This document shows positions 36,122-56,929 of a DNA stretch of 64,000 nucleotides, in pieces. A program made the position numbers and the translations under genes. A model generated the notes under the pieces. That model was not told the origin of the DNA, made no database searches, and saw only the letters and a program-made list of their open reading frames with translations. How positions within the stretch are numbered: the first letter of the stretch is position 1; each line of letters starts with the position of its first letter. Origin of the DNA: Prorocentrum cordatum (Eukaryota); assembly GCA_963575745.1 (NCBI GenBank), contig CAUYUJ010000325.1:558001-622000 (forward strand), in the 5' to 3' direction.

Positions 36122-36154
<33 letters not shown>

Positions 36155-37170
36155 GTGTGCGTGTGTGCGTGTGTGCGTGTGTGCGCGTGTGCGCGTGTGC
36201 GTGTGTGCGTGCGTGCGTGTGTGCGCGCGTGCGTGCGTGCGTGTGTGCGTGTGCGCGTGCGTGCGTGCGTGCGCGTGTGCGTGTGTGCGTGCGTGCGTGC
36301 GTGCTGCGTGAGTCCGTGTGTGCGTGTGTGCGTGCGTGCGGGTGCGCGGGTGCGCGGGTGTGCGGGTGCGCGTGTGTGTGGGTGCGCGCGCGCGTGCGCG
36401 CGGGCGCGCGGGCGCGCGGGTGGGCGGGCGCGCGCGTGCGCGGGTGCGCGGGCGCACGGGTGCGCGGGTGTGCGGGTGCACGGGCGCGCGCGCGTGCGTG
36501 TGTGCGCGTGTGCGCGTGTGCGTGTGTGCGCGCGTGCGTGTGTGCGCGTGTGAGTGTGCGCGTGTGTGCGCGTGTGGCTGTGCGCGTGTGCGCGCGCGCC
36601 GTTGCGCGCGAGTGCGCGAGTGCGCGTGTGCGCACGTGTGAGCGCGTGCGCGCGTGCGCGAGTGCGCGCGTGCGCGTGTGCGCGCGCGCGTGCGCGCGTG
36701 CGCGTGTGCGCGCGCCGCTGCGAGCGCGTGCGCGTGTGTGCGTGCGCGCGCACGTGCACGCGTGCGCGCGTGCGCGCGTGCGCGGCGCGCGTGGGTGGCG
36801 GGCGTGGGCCGTGTGCGCGTGTGCGCGTGGAGGCGCGCGCGTGCGCGCGCGCGCGCATGTGCGCGCGCGCGCGTGTGCGCGCGCGCGTGTGCGCGCGCGC
36901 CGTGCGCGCGCCTGCGCGCGACCGCGTGCCCGCGCGTGCGCGCGTGTCGCGCGTGCGCGCGCGCGCGTGCGCGCGCGTGCGCGTGCGCGCGCGCGCGCGC
37001 GCGGGGCGCGCGGGGGCGCGCGGGGGCGCGCGAAGGCGCGCGAAGGCGCGCGGGCCGCGCGGGGGCGCGCAGGGGCGCGCGGGCGCGCACGGGGCGCGCG
37101 AGCGCGCGGGCGCGCGGGCGCGCGGGCGCGCGGGCGCGCGGGCGCGCGGGCGCACGGGCGCGCGGGCGCA
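35765..37170 (+). repeat. GT/GC compound microsatellite grading into (GC)-rich repeats
   Basis: Seen directly. Confidence 0.95.
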
Positions 37171-39419
37171 CGACGGCCCAAGAGACCCCCAAAAGAAACC
37201 CGAACCGGCCCCAGGGGCTCCCAAGACGGCCCAAGAAAACCAACAGAAGCCCAAGAAGTGGAATCCCAAGAGGCCCCCAAGAGGCACCAAAAGGCACCCA
37301 AATGAATGGACACACGCTCCAAGAGGCCGCTGAGAAGCATGCGAAAAGACTCCAAAATGCCGCCAAAAGGCGCCCCGGACGCCCCCTCCACACACCACAG
37401 GCATCCACGAAGCCCCCGTCCCACAACCCAAAGGCGGCGGCGGAAATGCCCTCAAACATCCTGAACTGTCACACGTTTTTTCCACCATGTTCGCCGCTTG
37501 TCTCTTCGGGCTTCAGACCCCGCGCCACGGCCCAAAAGATCGCGCTAGCTCGAACCAGACCGTCGCGCCGCGCCGCCCCCCTCCTCGCATTCACTCTGCG
37601 CGTTTTCCCCCTCGTCGCGCCCTTCCCCCTTGGCGCCCCCCATCCGCGTATTCTCTGTTGCCGCCTCCTGCGCGTGCTCCTCGCCATCCTCGCTTCCTGC
37701 TCCGCCGCCCCCCCCATCCTCCTCCACCTCGCCCTCTTCCCATATTCGCTAGCAAATCCAAACGTTGTCGATGCTTTTGGACACTGTCCGAGAGGCCCGC
37801 AAACCCGCGACCTCCGCGCGCCCGCGAGAGTACCCACACGAAGTGCAGAAACACACTGGCCCACAGTCCTTCCCACGCGCTGCCTCAGCTTCACGCCGCC
37901 ACCCTGCATCGCGCCCACTTGCATTTCATGGGGTGCGACACCTGGTGCGCTTCAACTTTCCTTGCCGAGCGACAAAAGCGGAACTGCTGCCGCATTCAGG
38001 AGAAGCGCCCCGAGGCAGCCCCTGGCCACGCGGGCCCGAGCTCACAAGCGCCCCCCAAGACCTCGCCGTGAACACGTCCTCTACGCGGTGCTCCCACACT
38101 GCCCTGCCCACTGGGAACGCGCTAGCGCGCCCAGCAACATGCGCCCGCCAGGTTTTTGGAACACCACGGGGGGAAGCTCCAAATTTGCACCGGGCGCGAA
38201 TCCGGACGCCAAGTTGCGACCCCGCATCTGGAATGACAAAGCGTAGACGGCGGCGCTGGGAATGAAAAGCGCAACGAAAAGGGAAGGAAGGAAGCGTTGG
38301 GACTGCAAAAAAATATCGGGACACCGGGACAACTCCTAGACCTAGACGGATATTCGCAATAGGGGGGAGGAGGGGGCGAGCTCGAGGATGAAAAGGGAAA
38401 AGGAGCGAGCGAGGGAGGAGGAGGAGGCATGAGTTCTCCTCTTGCTTCCCCCCGCATCCTGGAATTCCTTCTCCTTCTCCATGCCCCCCTCCTTCCTCCT
38501 CCTCTCTTCCTCCTTCTCATCTCTCATCCCCCCCCTCTTCCTCGCGGTTCCCACTCACCTCAGTGAGTCTCGCCTGCTTCTCCACCTCATCCTGTCCTCT
38601 CCTCCTCCTCCCCCCCCCCCCCATCCTCCCCCCCCCCCCCCTCCTCCCCCTCCTCTGGCTCTGACTCTTCCACTCCTCCACCTTGCCTCCTCCCGCCTGG
38701 GCGGCTGGCGCGGCGGCCGCGCCGCCTCGCGGTCGCCGAGGAGCCCGAGGAGCCCGGCCCAGCCAGCGGGGGGGGGCGCGACGCGACGACGACGACGCTG
38801 ACGATGATGATGGTGAAGAGGATGATGGAGATGATGATGATGATGACGATGATGGTGACGACGACGATGATGGCGATTTGTTTGGTTGTATTCCCGCGCC
38901 CTTAAGCGCCCGTTTCCCCCCTGTCTCCATAGGGGAAAACGGGCGCTTGAGGGCGCGGGACTGGTGATGGTGATGATGATGGTGATGATGACGATGATGA
39001 CGATGGCGATTCTCACTCTCACATCTGCGCCCCAACATCGCATAACATGTTTGCGGCCGAATACCACGCAGAGGCGAGATGTGCACAGCGACCGCAGCTG
39101 CGACAAGAAGCCCCGCTAGCTCGCAAACACATTCACAGCTCGCACGTTCGAGCCCGTCACGCGCGGCGGGAGGGGCCGGCAGCGTCACAAAAGCAACATC
39201 AACTAATTTATGAGCGGGGTACAATGCCATAAAAATGGCGACAATCAAACTTCGAAACGCAAGGCAATCGAGCCTGCTGGGCAAAATGCACTAGGACCGA
39301 TTCGGGGCGTTATCCTCTCTTCCTCCTCCCCTTCTCCCTCCTCTCCCGCTCACTCTCCAGTGCTCATCATACTTATCCCCCTCCTCTGCGGCGCCGTCGC
39401 TACGGCTGTCAGCTGCCGG

Positions 39420-42400
39420 CCCATTTGAGGACGTGCTTGGCGGTGGCATCATCCTTGCCCTTTTTGGCAGCAGCCTGAAACGATTCCCCCCTGAACTCCG
39501 CGCGCGTCAACTCGACCATCTGAGCTGCGGGGCCCCCGGGGCCGTCATCTTTCGGGTCGGCAGCGCCAGCGGCGCCCAAGGATGCCAGGAAAGCTGGGTG
39601 TGGGATCAAAACTGCGATGGAGGTCTTGACCGATCCAATAGACATGTAGTTGGTCGTCGTCGTCAGCACCGGCACAGGGGGCGCCTTCTCTTCATCGGAC
39701 GAATCTGGCTGCTCCAACGCCTTCACGTTCAAACCCGGGACGAACAGCGGAGAACCTTGGACTGTCATTCCTGGCGAAGAGAAGATTGAAAATATATACA
39801 ATCCTCTCCTCCCCCCCCCCCCCACCCCCCTCGCATTTCCTCCGCCCCCCCCCCCCCCCACACACTCCTCCTCAGTCCTCCTCATCCTGCCGCCCCTCCC
39901 CCCCTCCTCCTCCTCCTCCTCAGCTCCCCCCCATCATGTTGTCCTCCTCCTCCCCGGGAGCCTGCCCCTCTCCATGCTTCTCTTTATCCTCCTGCCCTCC
40001 GCCCCCCCACCCCGCCCCCGGAGACGCGGGCCGACCGACCTGGGCCCCAGGGCCCCCAGCGTCGGGATCCATGCCCAGGACCCGGGGACCCCAAGAGGAG
40101 CCCAGAGCCCACCCAAAGTTCCCAGAAAGAGGCTCACTGGATGGCTGCCGCCATGAAGGGGAGGGGGGAAAAAATGAAAGGGAGGAGGAAAAGGAGGAGG
40201 AGGAGGAGGGCGAGGAGGAGGCGGAGGAGGAAGAGAGGAGGAGGAGATGGGGGGGGGGAGGCCTGAGGAGAGGACGTGGCGTGGCGGCGTGCGTCCTGCA
40301 ATCGGCGACACCGCGATGAAATTCTTAGCGTCGCGCATGCCGCAGCCCAATAGGTTGACCACCCGGCAGCCCGATGTAGCGGAAACGCTGGTCACGCAGA
40401 TCTCACCAACAAGGTGCAACTGCAGCTGCGTGAACTTTGGATCACGGACGTTGACGAACATGCACCAATATCGGAGGCTCGGAGGCTTATGGACCAAGGT
40501 ATCCGCACCGACGCCCTCGAAATCTGCGCCCCGCGCAGCGGTCACAAGCTTCGACGCCTCCAGAGCGAACGAGTAGGCCGCCCGCTGCTGCTGGCTGAGT
40601 AGACGCCGACATGACAGGGCCCCAGGAAGAATTTGCCATCGAGGACAGCGCAGCGTCGATGTCGCAGTGATCATCCTGCTGAGTCGGCTGGGCCACCGCT
40701 GCTGGTGTCAGAAGCGCCTTGGCATGAGCGTCAGCCTTATCAGCGATCTGCACCTTCAGCGCAGTCTTGATGTCGACCAGCTCGTCGCGGCAATCGGCGA
40801 TGGTGTAGCCGTTGTCATTGGCGAACTTCAGGGCGATGTCTTTGCGCTCCATCTGCTCGATATCTTCGACTTCCTTCTCTGCTTGAGCCGCGACCTTCAT
40901 CATGTCCTGCGCCCCGGTGCACAGCGCCACCCAGAACCTGATCCACGCCGCGCGGCCCTTGCACTTGGCATCGCAAGCCGCAACCTCTGGTAAGAATTTC
41001 TCGACGTACGAGCGGGGCGCATCGATGGTCGCAGTGGCACACCTGATGCGATCGTTCATGTCATCGTCATCTGTTGTTTTGTCCTTGATGGCGGCGACTG
41101 TTTCTTCCATCACAATAACCATGTATTGGCACCGAAGGGACATGAAACGCTCGAGATTACCATCGCCACTACCACCCCACATCATCTTCAAGAAGCCCGC
41201 AACGTCTCGGTTCATCTGCACTTCCGCCGCGTACTGCTCTTCCGCCGCCTTGTAGCACAGGCGAGCCACCGCCATGAAATTCATCTCGAACGCGGTCTCC
41301 ATGGTCTTGATGTCGATTGTCTCCACGATGCAAGTGATCGGATGCGCGGTGCAAAGCATAGCTTGCAAGTTCGCGCCGTACTACTTCCACAGTCTCCCGA
41401 TGGCCGTGGAAAGGCCAGCATGGGTCCGCCTCATTGCATCCATGGAGATATCTTCACTAACATATTCGGCAAAAGGCCTGCATACGAACCTTCAGCTTCT
41501 TGTCGAAATCCAAGTAGGCGCAGATAGCTACGACAGGGCTGTCAGCATCTCGCACTAGTGGACCAGAGGCCGATGCAGACCCGACTGGAACCATGGCCAG
41601 GGGAGGGATCGAATCCGACCCCGCCTGACTCTGGCTGTCGTTGTGGTCGCCGCTGCCCTCGGGAGCATCAACGCAGTCCGGGTCATCGGCCACGTGGGCA
41701 GAGTCATCCAAGGCATGAGCAGCAATGAGCTTCTTTTTGATCCATTTCCGCAGGCCCGACCATGATTGCATGCTCATTGTAGATGGGTCGCTGGCGTCCA
41801 GGACCGCGGTGGGCGAAGGGGCTATTCGGCTTTTTCGGGATGACAACTTTGCCAGTAATGCCGAAGACCATCGCGATGCACTGCAAGCACCAGATGGCAT
41901 CATGATCGAAAGACGTCTTGGGAACACCTTGGAGAGTGTAGGCGATGGCGTTGTGGACGTCGTTGATGAAAAGCGTTGTTGCGGTCATGCTCTCAGGCTT
42001 TGCCTTCGCCGACGCCTTCGCCTTCGCCTTGCTCTTGCCGCGGCCGCGGCCGCCGGGCTCCACTGCCTGTGCAACCTTCGAAAGCTGGAACACTTCTGGC
42101 TCTCTCATAAGCTGCAGAAAATTGAACAGCTCTGACATGCTCGTTCTGGTCTTGAATACCTATGGCACGAAATCGTTGGTCAGAAAGACCATGGATAAAC
42201 TAATATTCAGGCAGGGCGTCATCCCTGCGACAAAGAACTTCTCCATCTTCTTGCAGATCTGATCGTTTGCGCACGCCGCGAAACCATGGTTCAATTCCTT
42301 GTTGCTGAACTGGCAGCGCGCGTTCGCGCGCTCCTCGTACTGCCGGTGCAACCCGCCGAGACTTGTCGCAGACAATCTGCGGACGACGGGCTTGCACTCG

Positions 42401-43400
42401 CAGAACTGGTTGAAGGACGAAAACTGGTCCCTGAAGTGTGCGCCCAGAAACTCGGTGCACCTCCTCTCGTAGCTGGCATCCCCGACACCGTCTCCATCCG
42501 AGTCGTCTATCTTAGCAGCGGCGGCATCTTCACCAACCTCATCGTCGAACTTCTTCTTCTTCTTCTTGCAGTATGCCTTTCACTTCTGCTCGACTGGGAT
42601 AATCATGTGGTAGCGCTCCAGGTAGCTCATCTCCGAACCGATGTTGCTCCATTTATTGTCCCCCTCCCTCAGCGCCCTCAAGATGTCGTCTGGGCTGCGC
42701 TTGTCCACCACGACGATGTTCTTCACGCCGCAACGGATCGTCTCTTGCACCATGGGGTTCGTCGGATCCCCCTCGCATGCATCATAGACCGCCTCCATCC
42801 GCGCGGCAAAACACATGAGCATGAACTTCCTGTCAGACCCACCTCGTCGGGACCGCGATCACATCGCCGTTGATGCCTTGACTCAGGCCCTCTCTGAGCA
42901 AGGATTCCTTATACATCCTCCTGGCATCAGCTTCGGCGCGGTCATTCTTGGGGTGGCGGGAGAACATCTTCGACTCATCCTCTGCAAACCACGACGACCA
43001 GAGCCCTTCCCCCAAGTAGCATGCGTGACGAATCTTGCGTTGAAGCATGACGCCGCGCAGACCTGGGAACCTTTCGTGGATGGAGATCCGCCCGCCGCCC
43101 GTTTCGCCACAATATCCATGTACTATTACCGCGCGCGCATTGCAGCGCATAGCATCATAGCGTAGCACGCCGCAAAGCATATCGCGGATATCTTCCTAGG
43201 GCCAGTCCAAGGCGCGGCGGAGTACGCCGGAATGCCTGCGGATGACATCGTTGACCCAAGGAGATTCAGGCACGCCCTCCGCTTCCAACATTGCCATGGC
43301 TTTCGACTCATCCGCACGCTGAGCACGCTGCCGCTTTGGGGCCACCGGCATGGTTGCAGCGGCTGTGGTACGTCGTAGAGTCGGAGTCGTAGAGTCAGAG
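39420..43400 (-). pseudogene. Long frameshifted gene with a possible ParB/Srx-like N-terminal region
   Basis: Chain of protein-like ORF fragments (43180-42833, 42822-42580, 42375-42160, 42138-41704, 41368-40487, 40674-40296, 39770-39420), with a GA-AG intron 40295-39771 restoring frame. The ParB-like resemblance is by recall only. Confidence 0.6.
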
Positions 43401-43882
43401 GCGCCCTCGGTGCACCTTGCATCACTGCAAGAACGCAACTGCGCCAAATGCGCCGCGGGGGCGGGCGGGCGAAGTAGGGCCTGGAGCGGAGGAGGGGGGG
43501 GGAACGCTGACTGGAGGAGGAGCCAAAGGATTTGCGTGAATCCCTCCAGCAAGAGGACCTGAGGACCCCGGGACAACTCATTCTCGTCGAGCCCCCTCGG
43601 CGCCTTGCAGTTGGGGATTCAGCGCGCCGCCCTAGGGCCACAAGGGGCCCTCCTTCATCCTTCCCCTTCATATCCACAACCAACAGAAGCTCCGAAGGTC
43701 CGAAAGTTGGGTCGCAGAGCCTTGGAATCCAGAGGCGCCCAGGGAATCCTGGGGATGTCCAAGGGTCCTCTAGCATTTGTATCCTCGAACTAAGACAAAG
43801 AGGTGCTGACGCAGGGCGGAGCTCCAAGAGTTTCACTCCTTGGTTTGCTTGCCTTGCTTTATCATTCGGCGAATATGTTACT

Positions 43883-43921
<39 letters not shown>

Positions 43922-44463
43922 TCGACTCACCCTCATTCTTATTATGCATGGTCTTGGGTGTTGCAATGTTGTGATGTTTGTAGATAGATGTCGATGATCA
44001 TGATTCATTGCGGCAATCTCGCCCTCATTCGCTCATCTCAACCGTGCGCTGCTGGTTGATGGCGGCGCCTCTGACGCCACAACGAAACCACATGTTGCAT
44101 TAAACGAGGGCACGTGGCGCTGTCACATCCGAGCCTCGTCGCTTCTGACCGCCTGCTCACAGTCGCCTGCAAAATGCAGGCTGCCGAATTAAAGAGGGCG
44201 CCGATGAGATGAGCCGAGTTGTTGATAGACCGCGCGGCGACGATGCACGTACACTCCCAGGCTCCGAAGGGCCGAGTGAGACAGCGGCAGGCGCGGCAGC
44301 TTAGAGATGGAAACATATGGGGCATCGGAACTCTGCGTGATGCTTGGAGGACCTGATGGAGGAATGGGAGATAACTTTGGTGTAATACCAAGCGATGCAC
44401 AGCACCTGCACTGGCGACATCGCGCGCGTGCAGAACTTATATCAAAATTTGCCAGGCGCCACG

Positions 44464-46835
44464 TCACATGTTAAAGGCAGCTGCGAAACGGCCCCGCTGA
44501 CTCTTGCGCTGCAGCCCGGAGGAGGAAGCCCCGGGATGGCCCGCATCATCATCGGCGTTCCTTTTCTTGACGGTGGTGGTGACGGTCACCGTCGTGACCT
44601 GCATGCCGCCCTTGTCCTCTGAGCTGACGCCCACCGTCTGGAAGGCGCTCTGGGCCGGGGATGCGGATGCGGATGCCGCCATGGCGCTCGGGCTTCCCAG
44701 GCTGCTCGGCGCGCGCGGCGAGGGGGGCCCCGTCTGCTGCTGGCCGGGAGGCGTCGGAGCCGCAGCGGAGGAGGGTGTGCTCTTCGACCTAGCCGCCTTG
44801 CAAGCCCAACCCGCAGCTGCGGCAGGCTCACGCTCACCCTCACCATCCCCATGAGCCGCATGAGCCTCTTCATCATCATGATCATCCTCAAGACTCGGTG
44901 CCTCTGGGGCCTCTGGGATATCGCCCACCACCTCCTCAGGAACCGCAGGCTCCTCGGCCCCAGCGGCAGCGTTGGCGGCCTCGCCGCCCTCGCTGGGGAC
45001 TGGGGGCGACGCGGGCGCTGCGGGGGCGCGGCCCAGGTCCGGGAAGGCGAACGCGATCGCTCCATAAACAGCCCCCGCCACGTTAACGTGAAACGCGCTC
45101 CCCACCTGGTTGAGCTGAGAACGCCTTGTCCTGAGGGTGGGGGCCAAAAAAACTCATCGCGCCCCGCCCCCCCCCCATCCCTCCCTCTGACCCCCCTGGC
45201 CTTCCTCCCCCCCCCCATCTTCCTTATCCCCATCCGCCCCATGGGCCCCATGGGCCCATGGGCTTCATGGAGAGCGACGTGGTTTACCCAGGGCCCCAGG
45301 GCACCTTTGAAGCGGAATGCCAGTCACGCCGCGCGAAAACTGGCAAACCGTGCCGCCGCGTTGTTGAGCATCTGTTGTAATTGGATAGCACATTGCTGCG
45401 AAGAGCTCCGCGGGCGTGACGATCCTCTTCAACGCGGGGTCGACAATGATGCCAGGATTTGAAAGGATGGCGCGCAAATCACTTCCGAGGCTGCGGACGG
45501 CACGAGACCACGGGTTCTGCATGACGTCGTAGCAGCAGCCATCCTCGAAGTGCTCCTCGCAGTACTCCGCGCGCCTCAGTTCGTTCGGCCCCAGCGCATC
45601 GCGAGGAGGCAATGTGATCGGCAGCTTGCAGACGAAATTGTCGCGATCGACGTTCTTGACACTCGCGCGGTTCAGGGCCCACTGCTGCGTCGCTTCCTGC
45701 TCTTCCAGGTCGGCGACCGCGAAGATGCGCCAGCAGAGATCGTCGCCAACCTGACTGAAGAATATATTCTCCATCAGCGCCCTGAATTGGATGACATCAT
45801 CGTCGGGCCTGCGCATGCCAGGGGACCGCGGGATGTCGAGGCAGTCCAAGATGGGAAGGATCCATTCTTTCAGAAACAACACGCGCATCGCCCCTTTGCG
45901 AAGGCAAGGCCACCCCATCTGACTCGGGCACGCGCAGAACGATGTAGAGGTCACCGAGATGGTTGTCCAATTCAGCCGCCGGGAAGGTCCAAACGTTCTC
46001 GTGAACGACTAATGGTTCTTGAATCCTGCGCCTTATTGAACACCACAGAGAAATTATTGGCGCGCTTGCCCCTCGTGTGAGCCTGATTGCCGAATATCGA
46101 GAAGTCTTTGCATACCGACCCAGCCGCGTGGACCATGGCCCTCCGAGCGGTGCACCGGCGGCCATGAACAACGAAACCGTCGTCCTTTGCTCTCGACCTC
46201 GGGATATGATTCCGCAAGAACTCCGCCGATTTTCCAACGCCACCGGTCCAACCGACATCGCCCTCGTGGACTGTTGCAGCGAAATCCAACGTCTGCGAAG
46301 ATGCACGACCCACCTAGAGGTGCTGGATGTAACCTGCGCAGGCAGAGCAACTCTCTCTGGCGCTTCGTGTCCCACTCAAGCGACCACAAATGCGCGAATG
46401 TCACGCCAGGAGTGCCAGCGGGCACCCCCTTCAGGGTGTTCACCGCGCAGCAGCGCTCTCGATTTGTTTAGCTGCGATGATGTCGGCCCCGACGCCGCTG
46501 AAGCTGCTGCTCATGGTGATCTCCCTGTTGGTCAGCGTCCTCATGAGCGATTCGGTTGTCATCGAGTGAGACTCCTGCATTCGACGCAGGGCCTTGGAGG
46601 CCCAACTGTTCAGGTCGCCCATGTTGTTAGCGGGCTCAAACGGCATGTCGTCGAGAGCTGACAAGAGGATGTCTGGATTGATCCGGCACGCGCGCCGCGC
46701 GGCAGCAAGCCTACTCAACATATATTGGCTCCAGCGGCCCGGATGCGCCGATGGTGATGCAACGATCATGCCTGGCCACAATGTACAAAGCCTAAACGGC
46801 AACGGAACCTCCCCTGCCAAAACGTTGGACCTCAC
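44464..46835 (-). pseudogene. C5-cytosine DNA methyltransferase pseudogene
   Basis: Motifs in canonical order: I SSSFSGVG (46502-46488), II LEWD, III IFADV, IV HAAGSVCKDFS (Cys 46112-46110), VI HENV (46000-45992), VIII GWPCLRK (~45910), IX RIVTPAELFAAMCYP (~45400), X QVGSAFHV (~45095). At least 4 frameshifts. GT-AG intron 45304-45131. Confidence 0.85.
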
Positions 46836-47136
46836 GTCTCATCGATTCCATCATTGGCGCGTTCGGTCTCTCAGCGCCCGCCGGGATATATCGCGGCGAC
46901 GCGGCCGCTTCACAGGCAGCCCATGTAGGCCAATGCGGGGGCACGACAAAGAAATATGAGGGAAGAGACGCAACGGAAGTGACCGCAGCGAGCAGCACCA
47001 CGAGCAGAATAATGAGCACGAGAAGGGCGAATGTGGAATCATCGCATTCAGAGCAAATGTTTTTGTTGGTTTTTAGTGTTTGAATCGATGTTTTCAGGGT
47101 TACTCACGGTCTCGACGGAGAGGCACATAAGGGGCT

Positions 47137-47333
47137 AAAATGGAACAGTTCCAGTTTCAAACTCATTTTTTGGAACGGGGGGGGGTGTTCCAAATTACGG
47201 GGTTGATTCTCGGGCCGTTTTTGGAACAGTAAGTGGGAGTTCCAAATTTCCGGCCCGGGAATTAACCCCAAAATTTGGAATACCCCCCCCCTGTTCCAAA
47301 AAATGCGTTTGAATCTGGAACTGCTCCAGTTTT
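47137..47333. mobile_element. Foldback MITE with ~80-bp arms
   Basis: AAAATGGAACAGTTCCAG...CTCGGGCCG (47137-47217) is the imperfect reverse complement of 47251-47333. Confidence 0.85.
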
Positions 47334-47981
47334 GCCTGTTTGGGAGGCACCATTCTGAATCGCAAATGCTGCTAAAAATCGCGTGTCAGCGAGGCGCATG
47401 CGCATGGCAACTGGCTGGTTCCGAGCTGAGGTTGCGCGTGGATCTCGCCCTAGATGCTGCTGTCGACAAGCCAGCACAATGAGATGAAGACGCATAGCGT
47501 GGCATAGTTTACACCCTCCTCGCATCCGGATCATCAGCAGATCCGCCCTCTTCAAACCACTCAACGAATAGGGGGAGCAGATTCGAACCCCAGCAATATG
47601 AGACGACCGCGACCGAAAAGTGAGCTGCCCCTTCTCCTGTCGAGGTGAGTTGCTTCCTTCGGGCCCGATTCCTCAGCGTTGCTGCGGACGCTGTTTCGCC
47701 CGCGCTGGAATCAGCAATCGCCGGTGTTCTAGGATCACCCCGCTTGCGCGATACCTACCTCGTCATCCCCGTGACGCCTCTCCTCGCCATCATTCCCTCC
47801 CTTGCCGCCCCCGCCCCCCCTCGAACAAGGCGCGGATCGGCTGGGTTCACGTCGCGGCGGGTCTGCCCAGGCACCGCCCCGGCAGCGGCCCCGAAAAACA
47901 ACGCGAAGACGAAGACTTGGGGACAGCGAGGAGGGGGGGGGGGGGGGGGCGAGGACGGGGGGCGCGAGAGAGAGTGAGAGC

Positions 47982-48023
<42 letters not shown>

Positions 48024-48413
48024 TACAGAAGAAGCAGAGATAATAAAAGAGCGAAAGAGAGTGAGAGGCGACAGCGAGGGCGGTGGAAGGGGGCAAAGGA
48101 AGGACCAGAGACAAAGATAACGGTGAACGGGCATTCGAGGAGGAGATAGGAGGGGGAGAAGCGGCTGAGAGAGCAGCAGAGATACAGGTGCCCTGAATTG
48201 CTTAAGCCACGAATAGAAAACGGACTGTTGCGGCGGGTCGCCAATGCCGCCAGTCGCAGACCCCAGGGACCAGATCCCCCCCAGGCCCACCGAGATCTAT
48301 AGGCAAACAGTTGGCCATAGTGGGCCCAAGCGAGTCAGGTGTTTCCAAGGGCCAATTGGACTCAGTTGGACCAATGCATCTTTGTTAGCGGGCTTTCTTA
48401 GCGCGCGTGTAGA

Positions 48414-48575
48414 TAGGGCCGCGAACAGCCCAAAATCGAGCGCCAAACTTTTTAAAAATATCGACGCCTGTTTTTGGCATAGAATCCCCACCCTGGGCCG
48501 CGAACAGCCCATAATCGAGCGTCGACATGTTTAAAAAAATATTGACGCCTGTTTTTGGCCTGGAATCCCCCCCTC
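48414..48575 (+). repeat. Tandem duplication of a ~78-bp unit
   Basis: GGGCCGCGAACAGCCC...GACGCCTGTTTTTGGC...GAATCCCC occurs twice. Confidence 0.85.
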
Positions 48576-48593
48576 GCCCTCACTTGACACATA

Positions 48594-51500
48594 TTACAGA
48601 TCAAAATAATCACAAGGCACTGCTTTACAAGGCACGCATAAAAAGTCACACGAAACAACTGCATGCTTCATAGCTGCATGCGTTAAGGCATTCGTTGGCC
48701 GCTCGCCAAGGATGCGAGAGCCGTCGTCTGCATCCCCGAACGCGGCCTTGGCGGCCGCGGGTGATAACACCACGGCTTCTGGGATGGCATTGCAAACTGG
48801 GCACCGAGCAACGCCTTCCCCACCGAAATCAAGACCAGACAGCTTATCGTACAAGGACCGTGTTGTCACAAAAGCGTCGGGCATGCGCCCACGAAATGCA
48901 GCACTTGCTCTTGCCATATTCGCTTGCGTTTGGGATAACAACAACAGCAGACCCCGCGTGAATCTTGTCCCCGAAGCGTTCGATGTGAGATGTATTATTG
49001 TACTTAATGCCATTGCGTTCATCCAGCTCAGGTTTCCTTCCTGACAGGACATCGGTGCGAGTATCACCCCAAGCGACCCATACGGTGCGCGAGTTGTTGG
49101 CGCTATCGCCATCACCGTCGTCGGCAACCGCCTCAGCGCCCGCGAGCTCCAGGGGGCCAGCGAATTGCTCATCTGGGTCCTTGGCAGCAAATCGGCCTTG
49201 ACAAACATGAGCAAGCGCAATCATAGTAGGCATGACCGCCGTGACCCGAGCCACTGTACCTGGGGCTGGTCCTCGGCCCGATGGAACGATGGGATGCAGA
49301 AAAAAGGTCGGCTGAGGCAGCGGCGAAAAACGATGCAAGTGTTCGCTGATGGTTTTGGGCGGGGGGGTCAAACAGCTACGGCGCGTCGGGAACCCCCCCA
49401 GGGCCCAGGGATCAAGGGGCCCAGGGGCGCCGCGTTATCTTGAGATGCGGCGAGCCCTGCACCCCCCCCTCCCCGGGGCCCATCCACTCCAAGCTATTTC
49501 CATATATTGGCCACTTAGCCCCCGCCCTCCCATCCCATCCGATCGATCCTTCTGCGACTTCCGACGCGGCGTCTGGCGGCGCAGGCGGATCGATGCCCCC
49601 CCCGCCGATCTCGCCAGCAGCGGTTGCAATCCCGTCTACGCACCCCATATTCTCAAGTGCATCAGCGGCCGCCCCTGCTGGAAAATAGCCCGCTGGATCG
49701 ATCACCTCGCCAGTCCAATCGTCGACGCCCTCGTGGACCTCTTGGACGCGCGAGGCCCCATCAAAAGAATCCACGAAGCCCTCCGCCCCCAGTAAATCAT
49801 GCATGGCGTCGTCGAGGCCGTCGGAATGCGCCGCGGCCGCTCGCGCCTCAGCTCGAAGATTATCATCTGCTATGTCGTCGTCGCCCTCGCCGTCGTCGGC
49901 TGGGCCGCCGCCGCCGCCGGCGCCGTCGCGGGGCCGCTTCTTTTTCTCGATGGCCTTCAGACACCTGGGATTTCGACAGAAAGAAATATACAAAGACCAT
50001 TGGGGGAGCCCGGATCGGATATGAGCCAGGAATCGAGGAAGCCAGGGCTGGTTGCCAGGTGCCCTGGGCGCCTCTTGATGTTGTCGGAATCCAGAAGCGA
50101 CTCGACGCCCACCACGCTTGCTCGTTCAAGCCGATCAAGCCCCTGGCCCCGCCTCAAATTGAGCCTCACGAGCTCGATATCGCCACCGCTAAGCACGGCT
50201 GCCGCGCGCAAGCCCTTGAAAACGTCGACAAGAAGAAATGGTTTCAGGGTGGGCCTCAGCCTGATCATAGCGCGTCCGTCCGACACGTCCACCTACTGGG
50301 GCGAAGGGGAGGGGGGCGGCATGTCGCGCCCGCCATTTCGCGCGCCCTCTCGCCCTCCGCCGACGCAACCCCGCTACGGAACGGCCTGAGCCGCAGCAAC
50401 GGCCAGCGAGAAGCCGAGCGCATATTGGCGGCTGCTACATGCCAGCCCCCCCCCCCCCCCCGTTTCCCATTTACCCGCCGCTTCGACCCATGTCTCAGCC
50501 CTGCCAAAGCGGCGGGTAATCAACCAGGCGTCGTCGCCAGCGTAATTGGCAGGAGCGCTTCAAACGCAGAGCGCCCACTTGCTGCTGACATCGACATTGC
50601 CAATCACACCCCGGGGCGGAGTAGGAAAATCGAAGAAGGGGGCTGACTGACTGAACCGAACTGTCTGAACTGAACTGGCCGCGCGGGGAGCGAGAGATGG
50701 ATGGCCCTGCCACGCCGCGCCATCCATCCCTCACCCGCAATCGTCGATCCATTAGCATCGGAATCGGAATCTCAAATCAGATCGTCAGATCGCGTGACAT
50801 GCAACATGCGCGTTGCCGCAAGTGCCTTGATCAACGCCAAGGCACGATACATGAACCTATTGCGCTTCTCCAACGCCAGCTCGCACGGCGCTGGAGCAGC
50901 GGCCGCAGCCTTAGCCTTGGCCGCCGCCTTCGCCGCCGGGAGGGCCGGGGGGGCAGGGGGTCGCCAGCTGCCAGCGGCGGCGCAGGGAGCGGCAAGGCCG
51001 CCAAGGCCCCCTCCTCTGGAACAGCAGGGGCAGCAGTGGACACCATCGCCCACCTCTGCGACTCGGCTGGCTCGACGAGGTTTCGCAGCGGGATCGCCTC
51101 CGACGAGATTTCCCCCCCCCTATCTATCCCTCCTTCCCTCCTCCTTCTCCTTCCCCCCCCCCTCCTCCTGACCTCCCCTCCTGATCTTGCTCACCGCCCC
51201 CCGGCTCCTTCTGGCCCTCCTCCTCCTGCCGGCCCCCCCCATCGCCGCCCCCCCCCCTCCGCGCCGTGCAGTTCTTATCGTTGCGCTCATCGTTCTCTTT
51301 CTACTTCCTCTTCGCATCCTCGTTCTCCCCCCTCCTCCCCCCCCCCCCCTCCTCCTTCTACTCCCCAGCTGCCCCGTTTTCCTCCGCCCCCCCCCGCCGG
51401 GCGCCATCGCCCCCCCCCCGCCCCCGCCCCCACCACAACCGCCGCCACCTCCGCCCTACCCCCCAAAACCAAATCCCCTCCTCGGCGCCCCCCAGCCCCC

Positions 51501-53381
51501 CTCCCCTCGGACTCCGCAGACTTTACCCCCCCCCCCCCCCCGTCCCATGCTCATCAACTACCATGTCTCTCTCATCATCTTATCATCAGTCCTTGTCAAT
51601 TATCAATCCTTCCCCCTGCCCTCCTGGACTCCCCCATCCCCCTCATACTCCTGTCCCCCCTTCCCTCTGGGCTGCCTTCGGATGGTCGCAGACGCATTCG
51701 TCGATGAATGCAGCGCGCGCCTCTGGTCGCGACAGGCGAGGCGCTGCCTTTTTAACTGCGACCCTGCTGCTGAGGAGTGGAAGGCCAATGTTGGGGCTTA
51801 GCTTGCTGATGTGTTTGGCGATGCTATTGGTCCCCTCCACCTCCTGTGCGTCGGATGCCCACAACTCTGCGATGCTTGACATGAACGAAAGCATATCGCC
51901 GCGCATCGCGCCGCCCCGCGCGGCGCCCGCAATCGGGCCCCCGCAGGGGCCTTCGAAACAAAACCTATGGCCCTATGGGGCCCACTGCCCCAGTCCCTGC
52001 CCGGAGTTCGAGCCCCCAGGTTCCCGCCTGAAGTGTTCAGCGATTTTGACTGATGTCGGACATGTTTTCACAGCCTCGGCCTTGTCCCGCATCTCCTGGG
52101 GGAATCGATGCATCAATGTCGTCGAGTCGTCGATCGCGAAATCGCCGACCCTTTTGGGATTCCGACAACGCAGCAGGTCGCTTCTGAAGGGCGGGGCCCC
52201 TGGGGCCCCTGAAGGGGCCGGGCCTCGGGAACAGCGGGGGGGCGGGAAGGCCCCGGGGCAACCAAAGAAAGTAAATAAAACGAACGTTGATTTGAACGCG
52301 GGTCGAGGCAGCGAGTCGCGCGAGCGTTTGAGTCTCGCCAATCCACGCAGACATCGGCCCTTTCACTGCAGCGCGTCTCAGGCGGGGTCTTGATTAGGAT
52401 GAGCAACTTCCAGGGGTAGCTTTCAAACAAGGCAACGATCCTCAGCTCATAGTCGGCTCGTAAATCTAACACTAGTTCCACGGTGGGCGCAGTCAGCTCA
52501 AAGATGTATTCGTCTGAATGTCCTTCGAAGACTTGCCCCCAGGTGCTGCTGCGAACTTCTGGGGCCAACAACATGTCGTCGCATTATAAGCATATTTGTT
52601 TCACCCTAGAATAAATCATGCTACATATCTTCGGCTTGGGGTTCGGCGACTCGTCTCGTTGCTGCATCCAGTTCAGCAAATGCGATAATGGCATACGGCT
52701 TCGGCGAGCAATTAAAACCGGAGACCGGAACCACGGGCCCCCAAGACAATTCAGGCCCCCGCTGATCCAGCGACCAACTCTCTGACCGTAATCCCCCCCC
52801 CCGTCCTCTGCCCGATTGGCGTCGCTGACAACTGGGCCCGGGTGGCCCCAGACACGTTCGAAAGCGCACTTCAATTTGAGGCGGCAGCACTTCTCCAAAA
52901 ACTCCTCTACGACTGACGACGACCCCCAAGCCCCACATCACCCTCGGGTCCGAACGAAGTTTTCCGAGTCGCGCCCATTCGAAGCGAGAGGCTCAGAAAC
53001 AATGTGGTTCTGTCGGTTCTCAGGAATCCAGGGTCCTCAGTCGCAGATGCAGTGCCCCATCGACCACGCAGGGGCCTGAGGGGGTAGCCTACGAAGCTCG
53101 CCCTTGGCGCATGCGTTCGAACGTCCCAAACTCCATGCGCAAAAGATTTTAGCTGCATTCCCAGTTGCTCGCCATATGTTAGTCAGCGTTGCAAGCTTGC
53201 CAAAATATTTAATCCATCCAACCGGCGAAGCTGTGCCTCAACAGATCGACGGAGCAAGCGGTCAATGCACCACTGCCATATCACCAGCGCGCGAGGATCA
53301 TCTGCCGTAGATGCAGTTATCAACTTGCGGGCGCCTTGCTGGCCTGGGCCTCTGGAGAAGGAGACAGGACCAGGTGATGGG

Positions 53382-53453
<72 letters not shown>

Positions 53454-54137
53454 CTGCGCACGGATCGCCGCCCCACTCACTTGCCCCGCGACTCGCACTG
53501 CCCACCGCCGCGTTTCCAGCGACGTCCGCCACGACAAAGGCGAATGGAAATACGATGGCGAGGAGTAGGGGCCATGGAAGTCACACGCGTCATGAGAGCG
53601 AAACAACTTACAACAGTTAGTCATTCAGTCAGTCAGTCAGCCAGCCAGTGGGATAGAGGTAGGAGACGGGGAGGGGATTCAGGGGATTGACCTTTGTCTG
53701 TCGTGAAAACAAACGCTCCGAGGCGGTTCGGGAACCTGACGGGCGCGCTCCACGGCTCGACCCCGGCTGATGTCAGATGCTTCTTGAGCATAGACGCTTG
53801 AGATGCCCCGTCGCTGTGATCTGGCACGAACTGCATGTCCGTGAAGACAGGTGCGCGCGGACGCAGCAGATCGTCATCGCAGTAGTCGCCACCTTGCAGG
53901 GCGGCGGCGGCCTCCCCTATCCTTCTCCCTCCTCATCCTCCCCCTCCTCCTCCTCCCCCTCCTCTCCTCTTCATAATCCCCCTCATTCTCCTCCGCCTCA
54001 GTCTGCCCATCATCGTTCTCCTCATCATCATCCTCATTCTCCTAATCCTCCAACCACCTCCGCCACCCTCCTCTTCGCCTCCTCGCCCTGTCCTGGAACC
54101 CAGTGGAACCCCTCCCAACCCCCCTCGGACCTCAGCG

Positions 54138-54170
<33 letters not shown>

Positions 54171-55318
54171 ACGCATGCCTCCATCGCCCATCCCGCCCGT
54201 CATCTCACCCATCTCGAATCGTAATTCACCGTACTCCCATGGCACCTGGCCCGATGTCTGTCGGCGACACGCAGCGGCTGGCCACGCTACACGCGTGAAC
54301 TTTGAGCGAGTTGGCAGCGGCACTGTTCGTGGCATCACGGCGAACGTGGTGCACCTCGCAAGTAAAAAGGCCACCAGCACTCCACATGCGATCCGCCTGG
54401 CGCGCGCGCCAGCATTGACGTCTACAAGAAACCGCAAGCCCGACCGCACGGGCAGACTCAGCGCAGGAGGAAGTGGCGCCTATCAGATGTTGGCTCAACA
54501 TCGGGAGGAGCGGTGGGGGGCCCGGGAGGAGAGACCACAGAAGTGGCGCAGCCTTCCCAGATATTGTTGGCCAGCATGCGCCCCCAGCGGACGACGCAAT
54601 GCCGCGCGACGGGGGCGCCCATTATCTGCGCCAATGCGGACGCCCCAGAATGGCCAATGTTCCTCCGAAAAGCCAACTGATACCCCCCGATATAATCATG
54701 CAGGCGCGCTTGGCGCCCACCTTCCGCCTCCTGTTGACCTTGATCCCGCCGCCCGCCGATGCGGCTGCAGCTCTGCGGGCCAACCTGAACTCTTGCTCTG
54801 CCTTGATCGCCCTCTATTGGCCCTGGCGCGCTCGCGGGTCAGCATGCGGTTCACCTGCACGATGCGCTGGTTGACAGCTGTCCTTCCGACTGGAACAAAT
54901 GGCAGGGCACGGGCGCGGCGACGCGGCAGCGGGTGTGCCGTGTCCACTGGGACAATAGCTCCGCCTCCGCCTCCAGCGCGGTGGGCCCCACCTGGGCGGC
55001 GGCTGTCAAGGCGATCACGAAGCATCGAATAAGCCCTCTCTTCAATGTGAGCCATGCGATATCAGCGGCCAATGTGGTGCCATAATGCTGGAAAGCGTCG
55101 CGCAACGTGCTGACGCGGAGGACCCTGTCCACTGAGATTGCAACTTGCCGACGCAACTCTGACTGCTCACGCTGGGTATCTGCGCCATGCCCCGATGCCA
55201 GCAGCGCATTACACAATGCATTCACAGCGATGCGACGAGACGGAAACACAACCGTGCCATCTAGCGCGATCGTCGCATGCTGGACACCGCCTTGTGCAAG
55301 CGGCATGTGCACATCCAT
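48594..55318 (-). pseudogene. hAT-like (RNase H-fold DDE) transposase pseudogene with a long C-terminal tail
   Basis: D1 RRDATNS (54336-54334), D2 FVFTTDKG (53698-53696), degenerate CxxH WQWCIDR (~53265), GRWG (53065-53054), YPWKLL, E in SDAQEVEGTNS (51837-51835), then an acidic region and CPVC. Interrupted by introns, inserts, stops and frameshifts. Confidence 0.7.
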
Positions 55319-56658
55319 TCCGTCTGAAATGGAATGGAAGATGGAATGTTATATTGGGCCAAAACGGCCGAACATTGCTGCCGCCACCTCTTCACATCTC
55401 AGAATTCAGGAACTCGCATGTCCAGGAATCCAAATCAAAGTCAAGTGGCATGGGGCCCGGGGCTAGGAATGTTGCAAACGTCCAGGTGTCACTGACTGTC
55501 ACTGTCCTCAGTCTGCTCACTCCTCGGGGTCGCTTTGACCCGGGAACGTTTTCTTTCTATGGTAAGGGCCCCTCAAGGGCCGTCGGTAAAGGGAGGATCC
55601 AGAGTGAGAGGGGGAGGTTGTTGGGACTGGGACGGTGGGTCGGCGGCGGCTGCGGATAGGCAGGGAGGGGCAGGCGACGGAGGAACGACTAGCAAAGAAC
55701 AGACAAGGGAAGTTTCGGGGAAAGCTTCGGGTTTCGGCGTCTGGGCTACCTAACGCATGCAACACAGCCAACTGTGCGCACAGATCGCGTGCCATCCATT
55801 GACGGCGCCTTCAGAAGCATGGGCTTGGCCCCTCAATGTTCAACGACCCTGGGGACGAATCCAAGTCAACAAATCCAATTCAACGCGTGCGCGGCAGCGC
55901 AAAGTTTCGGATACGTTGCCTTTTGTGGGGGGATCGTTTTCTGATGTTTACATGTGTTGCGCCAAGATTTCCGACATGATATGTGGTTTCTCACGTGTAA
56001 TGGCCAGTCTGCGACACGCAGCGCACGCATGATCCCTTCGTTCGAAAAACACATAATTAATGAATTCGTCGTCGCAAAAACACACCATACACGAGAATGT
56101 CCCAATCTTTTTTTGCACACATGTAACAAATATCGCCCGTACGTTTCTTACGAAAAAAACTCCCGGTGCAAATGTGGAACTTCCCCCCGTGGAATTCCAA
56201 ACCGCCCGTTGGTACCACCCACCCGGCAAGTTACAACGTCCCCACCTGCCCCCCTTCCTTTCGGGAGCGGCCAAGAGGGGGGTGTCCAAGAGCCGGGGGT
56301 GCTGATCATGACCGGCGGCATGTGCGCGGCCCAGCGGGGGGAGGCCAGGGACGTCATGAAACAAGAGGAGGCGCCATGAAATCTGGGGAAATATCCTGGC
56401 CCCCGCCATGATATCCACCCCCCCAGTCATCACCCCCCTCCTTGCCGCCAGCGATTCCTCAAATGGCGCTTTCGTTGGTCCCCAGGCGATGCGCTCCTGG
56501 CGCGCCAGCAGGAGCGCCCGACGGGCCCGAAGAGGCCCCCGAGAGGCAGCAGGAAAGCCGTCGGAGGTCCCCAGAGAGGCCCTCAAACAGGCTCCAGGCG
56601 TGGACGTCCCCCCTCTTCCGGGGGGTCAGCAGTGGCGCAAGCCTCTTGAATAGGAGAG

Positions 56659-56822
56659 TGAAGGGGCCCTGGGACACACAAATAAATACACACAAATAGC
56701 AGGATTCCCCACATTTCCCCATAGTTTCTGGGTTTTTATCTTCCCCCCCCACTTCCGATATTTTCCCCTTTTTTCCTGGGAATCGACGATTAATTGTGTC
56801 TGTGTGATTTTTCCCCTCCTGA
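56659..56822. mobile_element. ~158-bp interspersed element, copy 3
   Basis: Close homologue of 19643-19804 with TGA at both ends. Confidence 0.8.
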
Positions 56823-56929
56823 GAGCGGGGGCCACAAAGTGCCTGGAAACATCATGCCCTCCCCCCCCTGCGGCTGGCATCGCAAAGATGGCACGCAGCA
56901 TCGATCCTCAAAGAAGCGCGCTACACCCC

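What the first reader, a model, noticed from the sequence alone, without database searches (positions are those of the whole stretch)
38151..56203. Candidate giant DNA transposon carrying its own cytosine methyltransferase and a ParB-like gene
Seen: GGTTTTTGGAACACCACGGGGGGAAGCTCCAAATTTGCACCGGG (38151-38194) and its inward-facing inverted partner (56162-56203; 38 of 44 match). The outside flanks GCCCGCCA (38143-38150) and GCCCGTTG (56204-56211) match at 5 of 8, and all three differences are transitions. Between them, on one strand: transposase (starting ~0.9 kb inside the right end), C5-MTase, and a ~1100-aa gene ending ~1.3 kb inside the left end. Established: hAT elements make 8-bp TSDs, and MTase capture is documented mainly for retrotransposons. 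Inference: an ~18-kb multi-gene cut-and-paste element with epigenetic cargo, possibly undescribed. The boundary evidence is suggestive only.
Basis: partly seen in the sequence, partly recalled or inferred. Interest (0 to 1): 0.88.

Follow-up and report, generated by a model that had tools for sequence, protein, structure and literature searches.

The report
Inverted-repeat-bounded 18-kb block, divergent methyltransferase
An 18-kb stretch of a probable dinoflagellate genome is bounded by matching inverted repeats and holds broken copies of a very divergent cytosine-methyltransferase-like gene and orphan genes, so it looks like a dead mobile element, but no transposase was found and movement is unproven.

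Summary
The repeat pair is real: 38151-38194 and 56162-56203 match at 38 of 44 aligned columns. A second 20-nt inverted motif lies just inside each end. Each 'TIR' is a small palindromic unit, TTTGGAAC-N10-13-GYTCCAAA. Three more units form a ~204-nt near-perfect hairpin at 47132-47338, 58 bp from the block's midpoint; none lies in the other 46 kb.

The C5-methyltransferase call is supported only by motifs. Pfam, a home-made HMM, PDB and Atlas searches all fail. Yet the best sites for seven blocks derived from 31 bacterial C5-MTases fall in canonical order, with exact IV-V-VI spacing (0 of 5000 shuffles, 0 of 2238 control windows).

This copy is frameshifted. Contigs of one related run (X1, 90.6-94% identical over eight listed pieces) carry insertions that restore one frame. 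The ~1100-aa gene is also broken. Its only relatives are two Prorocentrum cordatum proteins and one transcript. It shows no ParB signal.

No transposase, integrase or reverse transcriptase was found. The 8-bp flank match (5 of 8) is weak. No second copy or empty site was seen.

Best reading (0.4): a decayed TIR-bounded element of unknown class. Main rival (0.33): a host gene cluster among palindromic repeats. The hAT reading is rejected.

The parts
38151..38194 (+). Left terminal inverted repeat. It contains the palindromic unit TTTGGAAC-ACCACGGGGGGAA-GCTCCAAA at 38155-38183 (G-rich spacer, 'G-type').
56162..56203 (-). Right terminal inverted repeat. Its unit lies at 56173-56201 with a C-rich spacer on the + strand ('C-type'), so it is inverted relative to the left end.
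38143..38150 (.). Left 8-nt flank GCCCGCCA, one half of the candidate target-site duplication. Its partner is 56204-56211, GCCCGTTG (5 of 8).
   Evidence: weak. P = 3.5% for 5 of 8 or better.
38304..38323 (+). Subterminal 20-mer TGCAAAAAAATATCGGGACA, 153 nt inside the left end. Its only other copy in the window is 56098-56117 on the minus strand (18 of 20), 86 nt inside the right end.
56098..56117 (-). Partner of the subterminal 20-mer.
39412..43330 (-). Gene 1: a broken gene of about 1100-1300 aa from an orphan family, interrupted by low-complexity inserts. Over 43072-40916 it is colinear with P. cordatum proteins P0002 and P0003, at 27-37% identity to P0002 and E 1.7e-41. The aligned path has 3 in-frame stops and at least 3 frame changes. 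Weak colinear similarity continues down to about 39589.
   Evidence: no Pfam, NCBIfam, PHROG or PDB match
44467..46838 (-). C5-methyltransferase-like pseudogene; the first Met is near 46769. Motif positions in the 791-aa read-through: I FSGVG (108), IV AGSVCKDFSIFG (238, nt 46124), V (257), VI PLVVHENV (274), VIII (310), IX TPAELFAAMCYP (474), X LNQVGSAFHVNV (575, nt 45114). Frame breaks lie at 46441, 46288, 46043 and 45926.
   Evidence: negative:
47132..47338 (.). Central near-perfect palindrome of about 204 nt. As single-stranded DNA it folds at -86.8 kcal/mol, z = -15. It holds three TIR-like units at 47169-47194 (G-type), 47220-47246 (G-type, at the apex) and 47274-47300 (C-type), plus two compact TGGAAC/GTTCCA sites. 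Its centre, 47235, is 58 bp from the block's midpoint, 47177.
48597..55348 (-). Right-hand series of open frames (54854-55348, 52116-52937, 51646-52362, 49415-50125, 48847-49434, 48597-49220), broken by low-complexity tracts. No homologue and no domain was found, and the coding signal is weaker than in gene 1.
   Evidence: an X1 insertion at 48919 joins two of the frames

Best explanation
The block 38151-56203 is most likely a dead, old copy of a large mobile DNA element bounded by terminal inverted repeats. Its class is not yet described, and the host is a GC-rich dinoflagellate-like genome.

Shown:
- The ends are 42-44-nt inverted repeats plus a subterminal 20-mer.
- Each end holds a dimer-binding-type palindromic unit (TTTGGAAC, an asymmetric G-rich spacer, GTTCCAAA).
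- The same unit is stacked in a long hairpin at the centre.
- All coding sequence is on one strand.
- One gene has the full motif order of a C5 cytosine methyltransferase.
- Both recognisable genes are broken in this copy, while a related organism's copy keeps the methyltransferase-like frame open at the five listed insertion places.

Inferred:
- An element-encoded DNA-binding recombinase or transposase recognises the units at the two ends and excises or copies the block. It would lie among the unidentifiable right-hand frames or in gene 1.
- The central hairpin is either a nested miniature derivative of the same family or an internal cis site.
- The methyltransferase methylates DNA in the element's own interest, as proposed for DNMT-bearing retrotransposons.
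For: Ends:
- Inverted ends match at 38 of 44 columns, E 3e-11, and are unique in the window.
- A second inverted 20-mer (18 of 20) occurs only just inside the two ends.
- The pattern TGGAAY-N0-20-RYTCCA occurs 9 times in the window against 0.41 expected (maximum 2 in 200 shuffles). 7 of the 9 lie in the block, 2 at the ends and 5 at the centre. Full units lie only at the ends and centre.
- Unit polarity G...(G,G,C)...C is what a nested mini-element of the same family would give. The outermost arm GGCTAAAATGGAAC resembles the terminus GGTTTTTGGAAC.
- The 8-nt flanks match 5 of 8, all differences transitions.

Genes:
- GC3 of 0.58-0.76 exceeds GC2 of 0.40-0.53 in 8 of 8 long minus-strand frames.
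- Methyltransferase motifs: the global best sites of 7 of 7 blocks fall in canonical order. IV-V spacing is 19 and V-VI spacing is 17, as in the 31 true enzymes. 0 of 5000 shuffles and 0 of 2238 control windows have all seven in order. The ordered score is -6.0, against maxima of -17.1 in 1000 shuffles and -21.1 in 1122 control windows. The motif IV site is the best of 127,996 six-frame positions.

Decay:
- 5 of 5 insertions listed for X1 between 45926 and 46441 thread five open frames into one.
- Gene 1 has 3 in-frame stops and at least 3 frame changes along its alignment to P0002.
Against: - No transposase, integrase, reverse transcriptase, polymerase or capsid domain appears in any frame. 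Pfam gave 0 relevant hits in 72 ORFs at E<=0.01, 0 families in 10 ORFs at E<=10, and 0 families in 6 whole-frame read-throughs at E<=1. NCBIfam and PHROGs gave nothing relevant.
- Only this one copy is known. I saw no empty site and no clean target duplication. The joints fall in simple repeats, not at 38150/56204.
- One X1 contig runs through the right end and 41 nt into the same flank (record 8). The junction is therefore shared, or the repeat is not the true end.
- Gene 1's relatives are two ordinary-looking, low-copy predicted proteins of P. cordatum.
- One-strand gene order is usual in dinoflagellates.
- The arms of the central palindrome run 36 nt beyond the shared unit, so it does not have the same termini as the block.
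- Its near-central position is unexplained by nesting; roughly a 1% chance by my arithmetic.
- Pfam, a home-made HMM (0.7 bits), PDB and Atlas do not recognise the methyltransferase.
Confidence: 0.4

Rival explanations
1. This is an ordinary one-directional dinoflagellate gene cluster, here a decaying duplicate. It holds an orphan gene, a lineage-specific divergent methyltransferase-like gene and other frames. It happens to be flanked and interrupted by members of a small palindromic repeat family (MITE-, introner- or REP-like). The two 'TIRs' are then independent small units, not the ends of one element.
For: - Each 'TIR' is a self-contained palindromic unit, and the same unit occurs at a third place.
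- No transposase was found.
- The X1 contig continues 41 nt past the right end.
- Gene 1's relatives are annotated as ordinary proteins and are low-copy.
- Small TIR-bearing intron-generating elements are reported in dinoflagellates (listing and abstracts only).
Against: - The ends also share an inverted 20-mer 86-153 nt inward, found nowhere else in the window. Independent 35-nt units would not explain that.
- No unit lies in the 46 kb outside the block.
- The X1 contig passes through the right repeat at depth 4.9, like the other element contigs (3.75-7.5). That argues against an abundant repeat there.
- Both recognisable genes are broken, which is unusual for host genes in use.
Confidence: 0.33
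2. The units are site-specific recombination sites of the lox/FRT type: two half-sites around an asymmetric spacer. The left 9.0 kb is flanked by directly oriented G-type units and the right 8.9 kb by directly oriented C-type units. The block would then be two integrated cassettes or circles side by side, moved by an unrecognised tyrosine or serine recombinase.
For: - Unit architecture and polarity: G at 38155 and G at 47169/47220; C at 47274 and C at 56173.
- The two halves are almost equal in length (my arithmetic).
Against: - No recombinase domain was found.
- The central palindrome is intact, with its outer arms still at the centre. Integration into an ancestral palindrome would have moved those arms to 38150 and 56204, and the flanks there show no such similarity.
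- The resemblance to lox/FRT is recalled, not tested.
Confidence: 0.1
3. One reading: an 18-kb hAT-superfamily cut-and-paste transposon with an 8-bp target duplication, carrying a transposase, a C5 methyltransferase and a ParB-like gene.
For: The 8-nt flanks match 5 of 8. Inverted ends are present.
Against: - No BED finger, hAT dimerisation domain or DDE domain at any threshold tried.
- No ParB domain was found.
- The ends are 42-44 nt, longer than the ends I recall for hAT elements, and begin GGTTT.
Confidence: 0.03

Closest known systems
Virus-borne Mariner elements carrying a methyltransferase (Mariner-1_OLpv, Mariner-2_PGv; Bao and Jurka 2013, PMC3627910, passages read)
   Same: A DNA transposon with inverted ends that carries a C5 cytosine methyltransferase gene as a passenger. 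[quoted passage not shown]
   Different: Those encode a recognisable Tc1/mariner transposase and an endonuclease, sit in giant-virus genomes, and their methylase is easily recognised (E 9e-72). Here there is no transposase, the methylase escapes every profile, the block is 18 kb and it lies in a nuclear genome.
DNMT-bearing retrotransposons of dinoflagellates and charophytes (SymbioLINE-Dnmt, SymbioDIRS-Dnmt3, Copia-Dnmt3; de Mendoza et al. 2018, PMC5890265, abstract and passages read)
   Same: The same broad host group, and the same idea: a mobile element that encodes its own cytosine methyltransferase, proposed there to self-methylate.
   Different: Those are retroelements with reverse transcriptase, and their DNMTs are detectable. 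Here there is no RT between the repeats, the ends are inverted repeats and the enzyme is far more divergent.
Large cargo-carrying DNA elements (Polinton/Maverick, fungal Starships, KDZ/Plavaka elements with TET/JBP; names recalled, Kojima 2025 PMC12730594 seen as listing and abstract only)
   Same: Size of 10-20 kb or more, inverted ends, and several passenger genes, including DNA-modification enzymes in the KDZ case.
   Different: None of their hallmark proteins was found by Pfam: protein-primed polymerase plus integrase, the DUF3435 tyrosine recombinase, or the KDZ transposase.
Foldback elements and palindromic MITEs or introner-like elements
   Same: The central 204-nt hairpin has no coding capacity, has long complementary arms and is built from repeated short sites.
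   Different: No target duplication was found around it. Its copy number is unknown, and it sits 58 bp from the midpoint of the block.

Membership tests
hAT superfamily DNA transposon | hAT transposase (BED zinc finger, RNase-H-like DDE core, C-terminal hAT dimerisation domain) | tested here: not met
   Pfam gave no such domain in 72 ORFs (E<=0.01), in 10 and 16 proteins at E<=10, or in 6 whole-frame read-throughs at E<=1.
hAT superfamily DNA transposon | 8-bp target-site duplication | tested here: inconclusive
   GCCCGCCA vs GCCCGTTG, 5 of 8. 3.5% of random 8-mer pairs do as well.
hAT superfamily DNA transposon | Short terminal inverted repeats (criterion recalled, from no call) | tested here: not met
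   The ends are 42-44 nt, begin GGTTTTTGG and are internally palindromic.
C5 cytosine DNA methyltransferase (Pfam PF00145) | Match to the family profile above its cut-off | tested here: not met
   No PF00145 match for the single frames even at E<=10, nor in the whole-frame read-throughs at E<=1. A home-made HMM of 31 enzymes scores the read-through 0.7 bits.
C5 cytosine DNA methyltransferase (Pfam PF00145) | Conserved motifs I, IV, V, VI, VIII, IX, X in canonical order and spacing | tested here: met
   The global best sites of 7 of 7 blocks are in order. IV-V is 19 and V-VI is 17, as in the 31 true enzymes. 0 of 5000 shuffles and 0 of 2238 control windows are in order. The other spacings deviate: I-IV 130 vs 63-84, VI-VIII 36 vs 47-55, IX-X 101 vs 24-28.
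C5 cytosine DNA methyltransferase (Pfam PF00145) | Catalytic Pro-Cys in motif IV, Glu of ENV in motif VI, FxGxG cofactor loop in motif I | tested here: inconclusive
   The Cys is present but in S-V-C-K instead of P-C-Q. ENV is present (HENV). FSGVG is present, though block I as a whole scores -10.1 bits.
C5 cytosine DNA methyltransferase (Pfam PF00145) | Methyl transfer to cytosine C5 in DNA | not testable with these tools
   This copy is frameshifted at 4 places. An assay would need the intact relative.
ParB / sulfiredoxin-like nuclease domain | ParB-like domain in the ~1100-aa gene | tested here: not met
   Nothing in the gene's frames, in its intact relatives P0002 and P0003, or in a PDB profile search.
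DNMT-bearing retrotransposons (LINE, DIRS, Copia) | Reverse transcriptase within the element | tested here: not met
   No RT between 38151 and 56203. The same scan finds RVT_2 (E 1e-15) in the neighbouring element at 25592-28474.
TIR (cut-and-paste) DNA transposon in general | Terminal inverted repeats | tested here: met
TIR (cut-and-paste) DNA transposon in general | Several copies at different sites, and empty sites | not testable with these tools
   No genome is held. The end pattern gave 0 matches in metagenome and viral collections. One related run carries the same right junction.

The most novel reading that the evidence does not exclude
This is a member of an undescribed family of large DNA elements in dinoflagellates. 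The family would encode its own extremely divergent C5 cytosine methyltransferase (S-V-C-K in place of P-C-Q). It would move by an unrecognised recombinase that binds TTTGGAAC...GTTCCAAA palindromes at both ends and in a central hairpin. That would be the first nuclear DNA-transposon counterpart of the DNMT-carrying retrotransposons, with a new end-plus-centre architecture.
Probability: 0.2. Interest if true: 0.8.

Novelty: new variant of a known kind. Interest (0 to 1): 0.5.

Why it matters
Dinoflagellate genomes are heavily methylated at cytosines, and de Mendoza et al. 2018 found hundreds of DNMTs inside retrotransposons in Symbiodinium. A DNA element with its own methyltransferase would show that the other great class of mobile elements has captured epigenetic enzymes in nuclear genomes too. 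It would also add a methyltransferase lineage that current profiles cannot see. The end-plus-centre palindromes would give a concrete, testable DNA-binding target for finding the unknown recombinase. If the rival reading holds, the value is smaller: a lineage-specific methyltransferase-like gene family and a small palindromic repeat family.

Tried and rejected
Searches that found nothing:
- Whole genome: none is held.
- RNA: no RNA holder is listed.
- Empty site: no joint at 38150/56204 in X1-X3. The listed long skips start in simple repeats at 38620-38653.
- End pattern: 0 matches in metagenome contigs and 0 in viral contigs.
- Protein-based locus searches: 0 in metagenome contigs for frame 40490-41380; 0 in viral contigs for the methyltransferase piece and for P0002.
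- Large protein database: 0 hits for 48597-49220 and for 45268-46008, searching longer proteins only.
- The exhaustive search gave 1 weak hit for 40490-41380.
- Atlas: no usable hit for 40490-41380. Best score 0.76, below the meaningful range, for 45268-46008.
- PDB: nothing for the two methyltransferase pieces or for the gene 1 profile.
- Earlier findings of this scan: nothing by place or by sequence.
One accepted job was interrupted. No fold was obtained.

Models considered and dropped:
- Two separate 9-kb insertions side by side. The unit order G,G,C at the centre is the reverse of a right-end/left-end junction, and no flank duplications fit.
- Integration of two circles into an ancestral palindrome. 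The palindrome's outer arms are still at the centre.
- A DIRS-like internal complementary region. The order is wrong and there is no RT.
- A retrogene origin. No spliced-leader relic with up to 4 mismatches.
- Methylation-driven decay of this copy. CpG observed/expected is 0.94 for the block and 1.0-1.11 in its coding stretches, so there is no depletion.
- Internal duplication between the two halves. None was found by tblastx.
Full report
THE OBSERVATION

The two ends are as described. A global alignment of 38151-38194 with the reverse complement of 56162-56203 gives 38 matches, 4 mismatches and one 2-nt gap. blastn gives 40 nt at 90%, E 3e-11, for the 500 x 503 bp end comparison. Two core words of the repeat, allowing one mismatch, occur only at these two places in the 64-kb window.

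The 8-nt flanks match at 5 of 8, and all three differences are transitions. 3.5% of random 8-mer pairs from the window do as well. 0.26% do so with transitions only, but that is a criterion chosen after the fact, and 8 was one of 11 lengths tried. So the repeat is real and the target duplication is only suggestive.

THE SETTING

The window is about 60% G+C and rich in simple repeats and mobile elements. It has a 100-N gap at 35665-35764. No genome is held for it.

The only protein relatives found for anything in the block are two predicted proteins of the dinoflagellate Prorocentrum cordatum and one transcript. I therefore take the host to be a GC-rich dinoflagellate or a close relative.

THE GENES

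No profile library recognises anything between the repeats.
- Pfam on 72 open frames at E<=0.01 gave only one low-complexity hit.
- Pfam at E<=10 on 10 and then 16 proteins gave nothing relevant.
- Pfam on all three minus-strand frames of both halves, read through with X at stops, gave 0 families at E<=1.
- NCBIfam on 29 proteins and PHROGs on 26 proteins gave nothing relevant.

The labels 'transposase' and 'ParB-like' therefore have no support.

GENE 1

An exhaustive HMMER search with the 297-aa frame 40490-41380 found one protein at E 2.3e-5 among 1.84 billion. Its 90% cluster holds a 732-aa partial P. cordatum protein, P0002. A second protein, P0003 (839 aa), is 84% identical to P0002.

P0002 aligns colinearly with the minus strand from 43072 to 40916 at 27-37% identity, E 1.7e-41. 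P0003 does likewise, and weak colinear similarity continues to about 39589.

The aligned path crosses 3 in-frame stops and at least 3 frame changes, so the window's copy is a pseudogene. P0002 and P0003 have no Pfam domain. The family profile matches no solved structure.

THE METHYLTRANSFERASE-LIKE GENE

By eye, the frames between 46838 and 45268 carry FSGVG, AGSVCKDFS, HENV and RIVTPAELFAAMCYP, in that order but in different frames.

Contigs of one related DNA run (X1) cover all 30 bins of the block. Their identity is 90.6-94% for seven of the eight listed pieces and about 87-91% for the first, depending on how its 23 gap letters are counted. Between 45926 and 46441 they show five insertions relative to the window (+8, +2, +3, +2, +1). 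By frame arithmetic these five lead exactly from one open frame of the window to the next. The ancestral gene was therefore one long frame, and the window has lost it by small deletions. Only 12 of 81 indel rows were shown, so X1 may have breaks of its own that I did not see.

The standard tests of identity fail.
- PF00145 gives no match.
- A home-made HMM from 31 proteobacterial enzymes gives the read-through 0.7 bits.
- PDB, Atlas and the large protein database give nothing.

I then took the seven most conserved 12-residue blocks of that 31-enzyme alignment, chosen by information content alone. They turn out to be motifs I, IV, V, VI, VIII, IX and X. I scanned the 791-residue read-through with them (X at each break and stop).
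- The best site of every block falls in canonical order: 108, 238, 257, 274, 310, 474, 575.
- IV-V is 19 and V-VI is 17 residues, exactly as in the true enzymes.
- The other spacings deviate: I-IV 130 vs 63-84, VI-VIII 36 vs 47-55, IX-X 101 vs 24-28.
- 0 of 5000 shuffles and 0 of 2238 single-frame control windows put all seven in order.
- The ordered score is -6.0, against maxima of -17.1 in 1000 shuffles and -21.1 in 1122 controls.
- The motif IV site scores 13.0 bits, the best of 127,996 six-frame positions; the next scores 8.0.

I conclude that this is a real but extremely divergent C5-methyltransferase-like gene. The catalytic cysteine sits in S-V-C-K instead of P-C-Q, and the gene is broken in this copy. 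Two limits apply.

THE RIGHT-HAND 7 KB

It has open frames with GC3 above GC2, but a weaker coding score than gene 1. It has no homologue and no domain. An X1 insertion at 48919 joins two of its frames, so at least part of it was once coding. What it encodes is unknown.

NEW ANATOMY

The 'TIR' is itself a palindromic unit, TTTGGAAC-N10-13-G(T/C)TCCAAA. Its G-rich spacer gives it polarity.

Three more units lie at 47169, 47220 and 47274, with polarity G, G, C. They sit inside a near-perfect palindrome of about 204 nt at 47132-47338, which folds as a DNA hairpin at -86.8 kcal/mol with z = -15.

A loose version of the motif occurs 9 times in the window against 0.41 expected. 7 of the 9 lie in the block. 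Full units occur nowhere in the other 46 kb.

The palindrome's centre is 58 bp from the midpoint of the block. It lies between the methyltransferase-like gene and the right-hand frames.

A second inverted 20-mer (18 of 20) lies 153 and 86 nt inside the two ends and nowhere else in the window. The two ends are thus homologous beyond the unit. That favours true element ends over two stray copies of a small repeat.

WHAT IT MOST LIKELY IS

I put 0.4 on an old, dead copy of a large TIR-bounded mobile element of unknown class that carried its own methyltransferase. On this reading the palindromic units are the binding sites of an unidentified recombinase. The central hairpin is a nested miniature relative or an internal cis site.

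I put 0.33 on a decaying host gene cluster that lies among members of a small palindromic repeat family. The points in favour of this rival are:
- no transposase was found;
- gene 1's relatives are low-copy and look ordinary;
- one-strand gene order is usual in dinoflagellates;
- one X1 contig runs through the right repeat and 41 nt into the same flank, so the junction is shared.

That the X1 contig is unbroken at depth 4.9 also argues that the repeat is not abundant there.

A site-specific-recombination reading, in which each half is flanked by direct units, gets 0.1. The hAT reading gets 0.03.

COMPARISON WITH WHAT IS KNOWN

DNMTs inside retrotransposons of dinoflagellates and charophytes are described (de Mendoza 2018; abstract, passages and reference list read). 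A 2025 survey still lists DNMTs in Copia, DIRS and LINE elements and in endogenous giant viruses (PMC12344493, passages read). It names no DNMT-bearing nuclear DNA transposon in the passages I saw.

A C5 methylase inside a DNA transposon is described for virus-borne Mariner elements (Bao and Jurka 2013, passages read).

My three searches on DNMTs or transposable elements turned up no description of a DNMT-bearing nuclear TIR element in the listings. A fourth search covered introner-type elements. This is not proof that none is in print.

VERDICT

The repeat pair and the gene positions are confirmed. The methyltransferase call is supported at motif level only. The transposase and ParB calls are not supported. 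Mobility is unproven. The central hairpin built from end-like units is the strangest feature and remains unexplained.

Noticed in passing
window 21001-30581: A Copia-type retroelement. It has an RVT_2 match (E 1e-15) in frame 25592-28474 and is flanked by 252-nt direct repeats at 21001-21252 and 30330-30581 (95%). Its upstream 1472-aa frame, 21173-25588, has a weak thymidylate-synthase-like stretch: Pfam E 2.4e-4, below the cut-off, and PDB E 0.57. A P-C motif lies nearby at 24260. If real, this would be a nucleotide-modifying domain in a dinoflagellate retroelement.
   Followed up: partly
window 56250-57100: The right flank of the block is a very abundant repeat in run X1, with summed depth around 20,000 and 36-101 contigs per variant place. 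Diverged pieces lie at 19644-19804 and 11139-11312 in the window.
   Followed up: partly
window 37300-57100 vs run X1: Differences between the window and the X1 contigs are biased. Across all contigs laid on the stretch, simple-repeat matches included, X1 reads T for the window's C at 283 places and A for G at 141. The reverse changes number 105 (A>G) and 75 (T>C). The window's copy shows no CpG depletion.
   Followed up: partly
window 48449-48576: A short tandem duplication with copies about 81 nt apart. One X1 contig skips 90 nt here (48442 to 48533) with 15 other letters in between.
   Followed up: no
window 35665-35764: A run of 100 N (assembly gap) lies 2.4 kb left of the block, next to a 74% G+C stretch of GC-rich simple repeats at 36001-38000.
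   Followed up: no
window 2709-4416: An array of roughly 90-nt tandem repeats, with copies 77-89% alike.
   Followed up: no
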